This document shows, piece by piece, positions 61,130 to 64,000 of a stretch of DNA of 64,000 nucleotides. Source of the DNA: Octopus vulgaris (Eukaryota); assembly GCA_951406725.2 (NCBI GenBank), contig OX597816.1, positions 86,862,001 through 86,926,000 of the forward strand. Reading direction: 5' to 3'. Within the stretch, counting starts at the first letter, position 1. The number at the start of each line of letters is the position of its first letter. The translations under genes were made by a program, and so were the position numbers. The notes under the pieces are model-generated. The model had not been told where the DNA came from, ran no database searches, and was given only the letters and a program-made list of their open reading frames with translations.

Positions 61130-61229
61130 GATAGATAGATAGATATATAGATAGATAGATAGATAGATAGATAGATAGATAGATAGATAGATAGATAGAT
61201 AGATAGATAGATAGATAGATAGATAGATA
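61130..61229. repeat. (GATA)n microsatellite at the 3' end of LINE copy 1
   Basis: Direct reading of the sequence. Confidence 0.95.
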
Positions 61230-62741
61230 AGTTTCTTTATTGGCCACACAGGGCTGCACACAGATGGGACAAGTTACAAGGTAGAGCTTTTCTTTTGGGG
61301 GATGAAAAAAACAAAAAAACAAAAGAATAAAATAGGGGTGGCGTAGGTTTTCGATCAAGAGGGATCGTAAAAGGGAAGAAAAGAACAAAAAAAAAAAATA
61401 AATAAATAAATAAATAAATAAATAAATAAATAAATAAATAAAATAAAAATAAAAAAGAATAAAAAGAATAAAAAAGGAAAAGGAAAAGGAACAAAAGAAA
61501 AGAGAAATGAAAAAAGAAGAAAAAAGGGGAAAAAGGGGAAGAGGAAAAAAAAGAACGATCAATAGGGATCGTGTATCACAGTGTTATGATATATGGTGTA
61601 AAGAGGAAAGCAAGTAAGGTTTATCCGTGGGAAGAAAAGCCTACGAAAAAGACCACGGTAACCTTGGTCAATATTGTTATATGTTACCACATTTGTTTGC
61701 AAGTGGGTAACCCTCTGTTTTCAATTTCTGGGTTTATAGGATTATGCTCAAGGTGGCTTCGTCATTCATACGTGCCATCCTTGCTACATTCACCCATCTT
61801 TTTTTAAAACATTCGCTAGACAAAACTTGCCTCTCTACTCTCACTTTCCTTTTCAAGTGGTACTTGAAGAAGTTGATGAGAGATTGACCAGAGAGGAAAG
61901 TGTTTGTCTCCAATCCTTTCAGACGCGTCCACCAGATACATTCTTTCGCCATAGCCACAAGGATGATGAAAATAGCTCTTCCTTCCCGTTTGACGGAAGG
62001 AGGCGTGACAATATTGACGATAGACTCAGCTGATAAACCGACTCATACCACACGTGACAGCAGTTGTTCGACATAAGCCCACAGGTCGGAAATTGTTGGA
62101 CACTGCTCGAGTGCGTGCAGAACGGTTTCGTCGCTCTGACCGCATCTCGGGCAGGTCGGCCCCGTGTTTCTCGAGCCGTGTCTGTAGAGCTTATCCCGAA
62201 CGGGTAGCGCTTCTCGGTAACACTGCCAGGCCAGGGATCTCTGGAAGTTGTCCATGGGCCCTGGCCCGAAAGTCGTCCTGAACAGGCGGGTCAAGTACTC
62301 CTCGTCGGCGTCCAGGTTCTCCCCGAGCTCGTCGTCGTACCTCCCCTCCACTAATCCCCTATAGAATGCTTTGGTTGTGTTGAAGTCACTCAAGGTCGAC
62401 CCAGAACGGCAGAGTTGCTTGAGAGCAACGCGACACTCGCGGTGCCATTCGCCCTTCCTCGGCCTCTTTTTGATCCACGACTGCAGTTCGGTCATGGAGA
62501 CGAGCTGCGGGAAAGCGTGCCTCACAAACGGCGACCACACCTGTTCACCGTCGTCTACATAGAGCCAGAGATGTCGCAGTCTCAGCGCGTGTCTGCGCAT
62601 CATCAACCACGGCATGCCCAGCCCTTCTTTTAACGGGTGTTGACAGCAAATGGATCGCCTGACCATCGGGACGCATCCTTTCCACAAGAAGCGAAAGAGA
62701 ATGCGTTGTAGTTTGGTGATGGTAGGGTCGGGACAAGGTAC
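61230..62741 (-). mobile_element. Young 5'-truncated L1/Tx1-like LINE, copy 1 (ORF2 C-terminus with one nonsense codon at 62043, plus 3' UTR)
   Basis: FRFLWKG..VRRSICCQHPLKEGLGMP, CPRCGQSDETVLHALEQC (zf-RVT); same frame resumes to the stop at 61734; aataaa near the 3' end. Confidence 0.92.
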
Positions 62742-62848
62742 GATAGATAGATAGATAGATAGATAGATAGATAGATAGATAGATAGATAGATAGATAGAT
62801 AGATAGATAGATAGATAGATAGATAGATAGATAGATAGATAGATAGAT
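62742..62848. repeat. (GATA)n microsatellite between the two LINE copies
   Basis: Direct reading of the sequence. Confidence 0.95.
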
Positions 62849-64000
62849 ATGTTTCTTTATTAGCCACACAGGGCTGCACACAGATAGAACAAATTACAAG
62901 GTAGAGCTTTTCTTTTGAAGGTTTAAAAAAAAAAAAAAAAAAAAAAAAGGAAGGGGGAGTTTCGATCAAAAGGGATCGTAAAAGGAGAGAAAGAGGACAA
63001 AAAAAAGGGGGGGTTAAAAAAAAAAGGGGGAGAGGAAAAAAAATTGATCAATAGGGATCGTTATCACAGAAATGTCAATATGAAGTGTAAAGGGGAGGAC
63101 AGGTGAGGTTTACCCGTGGAAAGAAAAGCCTACGGAAAAGACCACGGTAACCTCGGTCAATGAAGTCACATTTTATATTTCTTTTTTTTTTTTTTTGCAA
63201 ATAAGCAACTCTCTGTTTTCGATTTCTGGGTTCATAGGACTATGCTCAAGGTGGCTTCGTCATTCATACGTGCCATTCTTGCTACATTCACCCATCTTTT
63301 TTTAAAACATTCGCTAGACAAAACTTGCCTCTCTACTCTCACTTTCCTTTTCAAGTGGTACTTGAAGAAGTTGATGAGAGATTGACCAGAGAGGAAAGTG
63401 TTTGTCTCCAATCCTTTCAGACGCGTCCACCAGATACATTCTTTCGCCATAGCCACAAGGATGATGAAAATAGCTCTTCCTTCCCGTTTGAAGGAAGGAG
63501 GCGTGACAATATTGACGATAGACTCAGCTGATAAACCGACTCGTCCCACACGTGACAGCAGTTGTTCGACATAAGCCCACAGGTCGGAAATTGTTGGACA
63601 CTGAACGAGTGCGTGCAGAACGGTTTCGTCGCTCTGACCGCATCTCGGGCAGGTCGGCCCCGTGTTTCTCGAGCCGTGTCTGTAGAGCTTATCCCGAACG
63701 GGTAGCGCTTCTCGGTAGCACTGCCAGGCCAGGGATCTCTGGAAGTTGTCCATGGGCCCTGGCCCGAAAGTCGTCCTAAACAGGCGGGTCAGGTACTCCT
63801 CGTCGACGTCCAGGTTCGCCCCGAGCTCGTCGTCGTACCTCCCCTCCACTAAACCCCTATAGAATGCTTTGGTTGTGTTGAAGTCACTTAAGGTCGACCC
63901 AGGACGGCAGAGTTGCTTGAGAGCAACGCGACACTCGCGGTGCCATTCGCCCTTCCTCGGCCTCTTTTTGATCCACGACTGCAGTTCGGTCATGGAGACG
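62849..64000 (-). mobile_element. Young L1/Tx1-like LINE, copy 2 (open ORF2 C-terminus 63232 to beyond 64000; continues past the window)
   Basis: Uninterrupted 253-aa ORF with a CPRC..H..C knuckle; near-identical to the coding part of copy 1. Confidence 0.93.

What the first reader, a model, noticed from the sequence alone, without database searches (positions are those of the whole stretch)
61130..64000. Tandem young Tx1-like LINEs embedded in (TATC)n: candidate GATA-microsatellite-targeting retrotransposon
Seen (- strand): copy 2, (TATC)n, 5'-truncated copy 1, (TATC)n. Both end aataaagaaac(a/t)tatc with no poly(A). Copy 1's 5' junction joins TATC repeats at ATC-GTA-CCT (possible microhomology). 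Established: Tx1-clade elements include sequence-specific families, some targeting TC/TTC microsatellites (Kibi, Koshi). Inference: a recently active family specific for GATA repeats that regenerates its own target and builds head-to-tail arrays. I cannot confirm that it is undescribed.
Basis: partly seen in the sequence, partly recalled or inferred. Interest (0 to 1): 0.75.

Follow-up and report, generated by a model that had tools for sequence, protein, structure and literature searches.

The report
LINE family targeting GATA microsatellites
The two copies belong to a young jumping-gene family with about 9,000 copies that mostly sit inside GATA repeats and likely insert into repeats already present; a sister family sits in ATT repeats instead, so the pair could be used to test how such elements choose a target.

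Summary
Observation confirmed. Copy 2 continues past the window as a full-length 6.1-kb L1/Tx1-type LINE (ORF1 with zinc knuckle; APE-RT ORF2) with (TATC)n on both sides. Copy 1 is a separate 5'-truncated insertion with a different 3' UTR.
Of 8,990 exact 3' ends genome-wide, 6,557 continue into TATCTATC and 7 into (TAT)3, although (TAT)n runs are as common. In a positional sample, 69 of 98 copies have TATC at the 5' junction (background 0.3%); 29 of 30 full-length 5' ends do. Target-site duplications of 6-17 nt start at TAT (12 of 75 testable; control mean 1.7), and off-target copies carry no TATC tail. TATC is therefore mainly the target, not a tail. Self-regeneration appears limited to the duplication, and target saturation roughly explains the tandems.
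A sister family (about 850 ends) sits in (ATT)n with an almost identical endonuclease hairpin loop. The lineage falls outside the Tx1L group in my tree. It is a new member of a known kind (Kibi/Koshi-like). I found no GATA target in print, but could not check Repbase. This scan noted a GATA-targeting LINE before on other DNA (e1-9514738).

The parts
62850..64000 (-). Copy 2, 3' part (end of ORF2 and type-A 3' UTR) of a full-length 6.08-kb element that continues to about G000:C3:86,930,930 (L031 3850-9927). Beyond the window: ORF1 679 aa with a CCHC knuckle, and ORF2 (APE + RT) interrupted by one in-frame stop
   Evidence: 0.25-1.25% from 20 other full-length copies
63232..64000 (-). C-terminal 255 aa of copy 2 ORF2 with zf-RVT motif
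   Evidence: PF13966 E 2.6e-08
62851..62861 (-). 3' terminus of copy 2: AATAAA signal 6 nt before the TATC junction, no poly(A)
62742..62849 (-). (TATC)27 spacer: 3' flank of copy 2 and 5' flank of copy 1
   Evidence: TRF 100% matches
61230..62741 (-). Copy 1, 1.51 kb, 5'-truncated at about position 4,700 of the element; ORF2 remnant with a stop at 62043-62045; type-B 3' UTR; 2-nt TC microhomology at its 5' junction
61092..61229 (-). 3' flank microsatellite, about 25 TATC units grading into (TA)n
62963..62978 (-). One of two short CGATC-N6-GATCG hairpin motifs in the 3' UTR (others at 63046-63060, 61352-61367, 61556-61571); function unknown
   Evidence: fold z -5.0 for this one, -0.5 for the other in copy 2

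Best explanation
These are two copies of a young L1/Tx1-type LINE family that sits mostly in (TATC)n/(GATA)n microsatellites and likely inserted separately into an array already there, by target-primed reverse transcription. Shown: family size, youth, TATC on both flanks at many different truncation points, 6-17-nt target-site duplications starting at TAT, and no TATC or poly(A) tail at off-target sites. Inferred mechanism: the APE domain nicks the GATA strand at 5'-(G)ATA|N-3'. The transcript likely reads a few units past AATAAA into the flanking repeat, and its UAUC end would anneal to the nicked strand and prime reverse transcription, so no poly(A) is copied. A second nick 6-17 nt away gives the duplication. 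Tandems arise when a new copy lands in the repeat flank of an older one; here copy 2 is probably the later arrival.
For: 8,990 exact 3' ends; 6,557 followed by WTATCTATC and 7 by W(TAT)3, against 77,881 (TATC)5 and 85,282 (TAT)7 runs. 5' TATC in 69 of 98 positional copies (background 56 of 17,416 positions); 58 of these are not the 3' flank of an upstream copy; 29 of 34 among the youngest. 29 of 30 full-length 5' ends (read by eye; includes the window's own copy). 3' flank begins N-TAT in 91 of 98. TSDs spanning an interruption in 12 of 75 testable copies, against mean 1.7 and max 8 in 2,000 mismatched pairings. Off-target L142, L153 and L178 show 6-9-nt TSDs and no TATC run. At C1:1,840,855 the TSD includes the first bases of the downstream copy, so the upstream copy came later. 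Subfamily D (82% EN identity) keeps the target: 23 of 24 3' ends. Domains.
Against: 29 of 98 copies lack 5' TATC by my cut-off. Some of them have a long 3' TATC run and a non-TATC 5' flank (e.g. C1:11,131,731; 15,100,254; 9,644,808), where a tail made by the element cannot be excluded. 63 of 75 testable copies show no TSD spanning the interruption; this is compatible with shorter TSDs or later slippage but not proof. No empty allele from another individual was seen. No biochemical data. The read-through and annealing step is untested.
Confidence: 0.87

Rival explanations
1. TATC is mainly a tail written by the element (template slippage at priming), and 5' TATC comes from earlier tails or later expansion; the element would be a microsatellite generator rather than a targeter.
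For: 77 of 98 copies have 3' TATC. A few copies have 3' TATC only. At L152 the filled site has one TATC unit more on the 3' side than the neighbouring empty paralogous repeat unit. RTE elements are reported to carry microsatellite 3' ends (PMC9115989 passage).
Against: 58 of 98 have 5' TATC with no upstream copy. Interrupted repeats are duplicated on both sides as TSDs (L113, L114, L125). Off-target copies have no tail.
Confidence: 0.07
2. The tandem is a local duplication or assembly error and the association with repeats is passive accumulation.
For: The genome is very rich in microsatellites (110 TRF rows in the window). No read or contig spanning this locus was examined.
Against: The two copies have different UTR types and 19 ORF2 differences. 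The youngest copies show the strongest association (29 of 34 against 13 of 24 for the oldest class). Contigs of other runs also continue from the 3' end into ATCT repeats. Orientation and phase at the 3' junction are fixed.
Confidence: 0.03
3. Specificity lies wholly in the endonuclease (a 4-8-nt TATC read-out), with no role for RNA-DNA annealing. This is a sub-rival on mechanism, compatible with targeting.
For: The EN domains of the TATC and ATT families are only 65-68% identical, with an indel after the GDWN motif. Tx1L-EN nicks almost only its own site in vitro (PMC1950540 passage). An EN swap changes SART1/TRAS1 specificity (PMC7265360 passage).
Against: The hairpin loop aligned with L1 T192-S202 is nearly the same in both families. 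Both targets share TAT, and off-target sites keep mainly TAT. No poly(A) is copied.
Confidence: 0.55

Closest known systems
Kibi (TC)n, Koshi (TTC)n and crocodilian Tx1 families in (TTCC)n/(TTTC)n (PMC4494074, passages and section 15 read; PMC3812793 passages)
   Same: APE-type L1/Tx1 non-LTR element found in a microsatellite far above the 20% flank criterion used in that paper
   Different: The target is (TATC)n, not a pyrimidine repeat. The host lineage is invertebrate (nearest named relative is an Argonauta hians protein, 69% over the RT region). The RT clade is separate from the vertebrate Tx1L group. About 9,000 copies.
Tx1L of Xenopus (P14381; P0367)
   Same: Two ORFs, APE-RT; whole ORF2 scores 335 bits to Tx1L against 181 to human L1 ORF2p
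   Different: Tx1L targets the DNA transposon Tx1D. Its hairpin loop is 2 residues longer than ours (LTX alignment). It lies in a different well-supported RT clade.
Waldo (ACAY)n, Mino (AC)n, Dong (TAA)n, Togen (TG)n (PMC3812793 and PMC4640811 passages)
   Same: Microsatellite-specific non-LTR elements; Waldo has a 4-nt target; Dong has the same repeat as the sister family E
   Different: Other clades: R1 for Waldo/Mino (from the title of the cited paper), NeSL-related for Togen (passage), R4 with a restriction-like endonuclease for Dong (recalled)
SART1Bm (PMC7265360 passages)
   Same: Repeat-targeting APE element for which annealing of repeat-like RNA to the nicked strand has been proposed
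   Different: Telomeric (TTAGG)n target, and poly(A) is present at its junctions

Membership tests
L1-group non-LTR retrotransposon | ORF2 with N-terminal APE, RT and C-terminal zinc-binding motif, behind an ORF1 | tested here: met
   Exo_endo_phos, RVT_1, zf-RVT; best solved relative is L1 ORF2p over residues 4-873, E 1.8e-52; ORF1 680 aa with CX2CX4HX4C
L1-group non-LTR retrotransposon | Fixed 3' end, variable 5' truncation, variable-length TSD | tested here: met
   6 of 98 full length, 44 under 500 nt; TSD 6-17 nt
Tx1 clade (broad sense, 'L1-Tx1') | RT groups with Tx1 references rather than with L1-clade references | tested here: inconclusive
   Closer by score to Tx1L (335 bits) than to human L1 (181), but the tree had no mammalian L1 row and the backbone is unresolved
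Vertebrate Tx1L group (Tx1L, Tetraodon BAC82605, turtle and fish proteins) | RT falls inside that clade | tested here: not met
   That group is 100/100 and excludes the lineage studied here, itself 100/99. That BAC82605 is one of the Kojima and Fujiwara 2004 elements is recalled, not shown by a call
Target-specific family by the criterion of PMC4494074 | One sequence type in more than 20% of flanks | tested here: met
   73% of 3' ends genome-wide; 70% of 5' ends in the sample
Target-specific family (biochemical sense) | Endonuclease nicks the target specifically | not testable with these tools
   needs an in vitro assay
An already named Repbase/Dfam family | Sequence match to a library entry with a stated target | not testable with these tools
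   No such library is on hand. PMC13282606 counts 80 L1-Tx1 families in an octopus library and has no occurrence of 'target' or 'GATA' in main text or supplement

The most novel reading that the evidence does not exclude
In this lineage the endonuclease reads little more than TAT, and the microsatellite is chosen by the RNA's read-through tail, which copies whatever repeat the parent copy sits in. The target would then be inherited from the insertion site rather than encoded in the protein, and a single off-target master copy could found a family with a new target, as in the split between the (TATC)n and (ATT)n families.
Probability: 0.2. Interest if true: 0.8.

Novelty: new member of a known kind. 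Interest (0 to 1): 0.47.

Why it matters
It adds GATA/TATC to the microsatellites targeted by LINEs, in a lineage that appears to have gained repeat specificity apart from the vertebrate Tx1L group. It is also abundant: about 8% as many 3' junctions as there are (TATC)5 runs in the genome (6,557 against 77,881). PMC3812793 (2013) calls the mechanism of microsatellite targeting not well understood. Two young sister families with intact ORF2s, different targets and nearly the same hairpin loop give a ready swap experiment to separate endonuclease read-out from RNA annealing. Practical note: GATA markers in this genome often lie next to a repeat.

Tried and rejected
Empty-allele test: contigs of four runs laid on an off-target site (L159) gave no cover of the unique flank and no joint across the element among the rows shown, so it is uninformative. 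Poly(A) behind TATC in RNA: loose ends of four 'RNA?' runs showed repeats or genomic flanks and no poly(A) in the rows shown, but these are contigs and RNA status is a guess. No RNA holder was listed on record. 5' microhomology: mean 1.06 nt in 16 clean junctions against 0.60 expected, with 6 more junctions untemplated or unclear; weak. Ribozyme or known RNA in the UTRs: no Rfam match near a gathering score in L114, L267, L289. 3'-terminal stem-loop: folding no better than shuffles (z 0.5, 1.7, 0.6). ORF1: no Pfam family for copy 2; zf-CCHC only at E 0.086 for family E. ESM Atlas gave only unnamed APE-RT clusters. A search with P0001 found no third family, only family E places (loci not cut). 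Rows dropped: the last 2 of the first 100 sites were not fetched; L112 was left out of the alignment and TSD set because its 3' motif was not found at the expected place; 43 of 118 copies were untestable for TSD (pure repeat); 1 of 25 D loci lacked the exact end motif. Literature searches that showed no GATA/TATC-targeting LINE in their listings. Kojima and Fujiwara 2004, Repbase Reports, and Fig. 3 and the supplements of PMC4494074 (which list targets of more Tx1 families) could not be seen and may already hold this target.

Full report
Observation. The window lies at G000:C3:86,862,001-86,926,000 in a 2.8-Gb genome. Copy 2 continues beyond it as a full-length 6.08-kb element: about 20 TATC units, a 5' UTR, ORF1 of 679 aa with a CCHC knuckle, and ORF2 with APE, RT and zf-RVT, broken by one stop. 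Copy 1 starts at about element position 4,700, differs at 19 of 1,008 ORF2 bases and has another 3' UTR type, so it is a separate insertion rather than a duplication. The species is not given. The nearest named protein is from Argonauta hians, and earlier scan notes call the genome octopus.

Family size and age. The last 22 nt occur exactly 8,990 times. The 5' end has 637 candidates, and the 40 scored are all at least 99% identical. Twenty-one full-length copies differ by a median 0.48% (0.12-1.55%). Of 20 fetched, 12 have a 1,145-aa ORF2 and 5 have both ORFs full length. These were picked as best matches to copy 2, so they show that young copies exist, not the age of the whole family. The element is held by 20 listed runs from 8 studies of one coded organism.

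Target or tail. 3' side: 6,557 of 8,990 ends continue WTATCTATC and 7 continue W(TAT)3, while (TATC)5 and (TAT)7 runs are about equally common (77,881 and 85,282). 5' side: I took 98 of the first 100 sites on C1 in positional order. Of these, 69 have at least 12 TATC-phase bases within 44 nt of the 5' junction, against 56 of 17,416 background positions. Fifty-eight are not the flank of an upstream copy. The share falls with age: 29 of 34, 15 of 22, 13 of 24. Among 30 full-length 5' ends, 29 have TATC upstream. Where the 3' flank is interrupted within 24 nt (75 of 118 copies), 12 show the same interrupted string at the 5' junction, 6-17 nt long, against mean 1.7 and max 8 in 2,000 mismatched pairings. 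All begin at TAT, as do 91 of 98 3' flanks after the terminal base. Off-target copies L142, L153 and L178 have 6-9-nt TSDs and no repeat tail. At L152 a neighbouring empty paralogous unit holds two TATC units; the filled site has two on the 5' side and three on the 3' side, the only sign of added repeat. Against: 29 of 98 lack 5' TATC, some with a long 3' run, and 63 testable copies show no spanning TSD.

Tandems. Thirteen of 98 copies have another copy's 3' end directly upstream across microsatellite only. With about 9,000 ends and fewer than 78,000 runs, roughly 6-12% would be expected from saturation alone (my estimate). At C1:1,840,855 the TSD takes in the first bases of the downstream copy, showing that the upstream copy arrived later. 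The same order is likely in the window, since copy 2 belongs to the youngest subfamily (inference).

Relatives in the genome. Subfamilies A, B, C and D all use TATC; D has 82% EN identity to A, and 23 of 24 of its ends continue TTATCTATC. A search with the Argonauta protein pulled out family E, 75% identical at DNA level in ORF2, with 850 exact ends. It sits in (ATT)n: 30 of 30 3' ends, 7 of 15 resolvable 5' ends in a positional sample, and the full-length copies viewed (read by eye). It forms arrays of full-length units, six in a row on C4, differing by 0.3-1.7% among the four compared; 14 of 18 spacers are 5-6 ATT units, the size of a TSD. The EN domains of A and E are 67.5% identical, yet the hairpin loop that aligns with L1 T192-S202 reads WSNRIGSSRS in A and D and WTNRIGSSRS in E. 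PMC1950540 (passages) treats this loop as important for target recognition, but also shows that grafting it does not transfer specificity, so the sameness is suggestive only.

Phylogeny. In an RT tree of 65 rows, A, C and D group at 100/98, with E as sister at 97/86. Together with P0001 and the Argonauta protein they form a 100/99 clade. Xenopus Tx1L, Tetraodon BAC82605 and turtle and fish proteins form a separate 100/100 clade. The backbone is open and no mammalian L1 was included. ORF2 scores 335 bits to Tx1L and 181 to human L1. I file it as L1/Tx1-type, Tx1 in the broad sense probable, not a member of the vertebrate Tx1L group.

Mechanism. Shown: flank statistics, TSDs, absence of a tail. 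From established TPRT: the left edge of the TSD marks the first nick, here 5'-(G)ATA|N-3' on the GATA strand. Inferred: AATAAA lies 6 nt from the element end, and cleavage normally falls 10-30 nt downstream (recalled), which is inside the repeat. The RNA would carry a few UAUC units that could anneal to the nicked strand and bypass poly(A), as proposed for repeat-like sequence in SART1 (PMC7265360 passages). I could not test this. I put EN-only specificity at 0.55, a mixed model below that, and RNA-determined targeting at 0.2.

Literature. Microsatellite-specific LINEs are known: Kibi, Koshi, crocodilian Tx1, Waldo, Mino, Dong and Togen (PMC4494074 passages and section 15; PMC3812793 and PMC4640811 passages). 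None of these passages names GATA/TATC as a target. PMC13282606 (passages and supplement search) counts L1-Tx1 families in an octopus without targets. PMC9115989 (passages) has no occurrence of Tx1. PMC3747384 (passages) and PMC13295347 (abstract) added only background. The searches listed nothing on a GATA target; Repbase and the target figure of PMC4494074 were not visible. The scan itself noted a GATA-targeting LINE elsewhere in this genome (e1-9514738). Two further look-ups returned nothing.

Verdict. A real, well-supported, target-specific family: a new member of a known kind, with a target I did not find in print and a useful sister family. Interest 0.47.

Noticed in passing
G000:C4:93.80-93.84 Mb (L266-L270), C1:202.32-202.35 Mb (L276-L278), C47, C50 (L271-L275): Sister family E in (ATT)n, about 850 ends, forming head-to-tail arrays of full-length 5.87-kb units with mostly 5-6 ATT units between them; places on the small contigs C47 and C50 recur at the same period. 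How the arrays grow (repeated insertion, read-through dimers or unequal crossing-over) is open.
   Followed up: partly
P0214 cluster: A Patella caerulea relative (40% RT identity) appears as 11 near-identical proteins at nearly consecutive locus tags SNE40_003393-003415, and a Coilia grayii relative as 3, suggesting tandem arrays in other hosts; flanks not seen.
   Followed up: no
L203, L205 (subfamily C), L289 (D), L114 (A): Subfamilies share ORF2 and the 3' end but carry divergent 5' UTR/ORF1 regions, suggesting 5'-end replacement as known for L1 (recalled).
   Followed up: partly
L082-L110, 5' junctions: Full-length copies carry variable short extra bases between the TATC array and the conserved start, suggesting heterogeneous transcription starts or untemplated additions.
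   Followed up: no
window 58723-59208 (-): Tc1/mariner transposase fragment (DDE_3, E 4.4e-10).
   Followed up: partly
L166 (G000:C1:10,528,393): A short old copy whose 3' end runs into (GATA)n on the same strand, the opposite orientation to all other sampled copies.
   Followed up: no
L129, L157 3' flanks: A sequence resembling the 5' end of subfamily D starts right after the TATC run, probably a further subfamily of the same lineage.
   Followed up: partly
run X1, L159:5255: One loose end looks like a template-switch cDNA adaptor (identity recalled), a weak hint that this run is cDNA holding the element.
   Followed up: no
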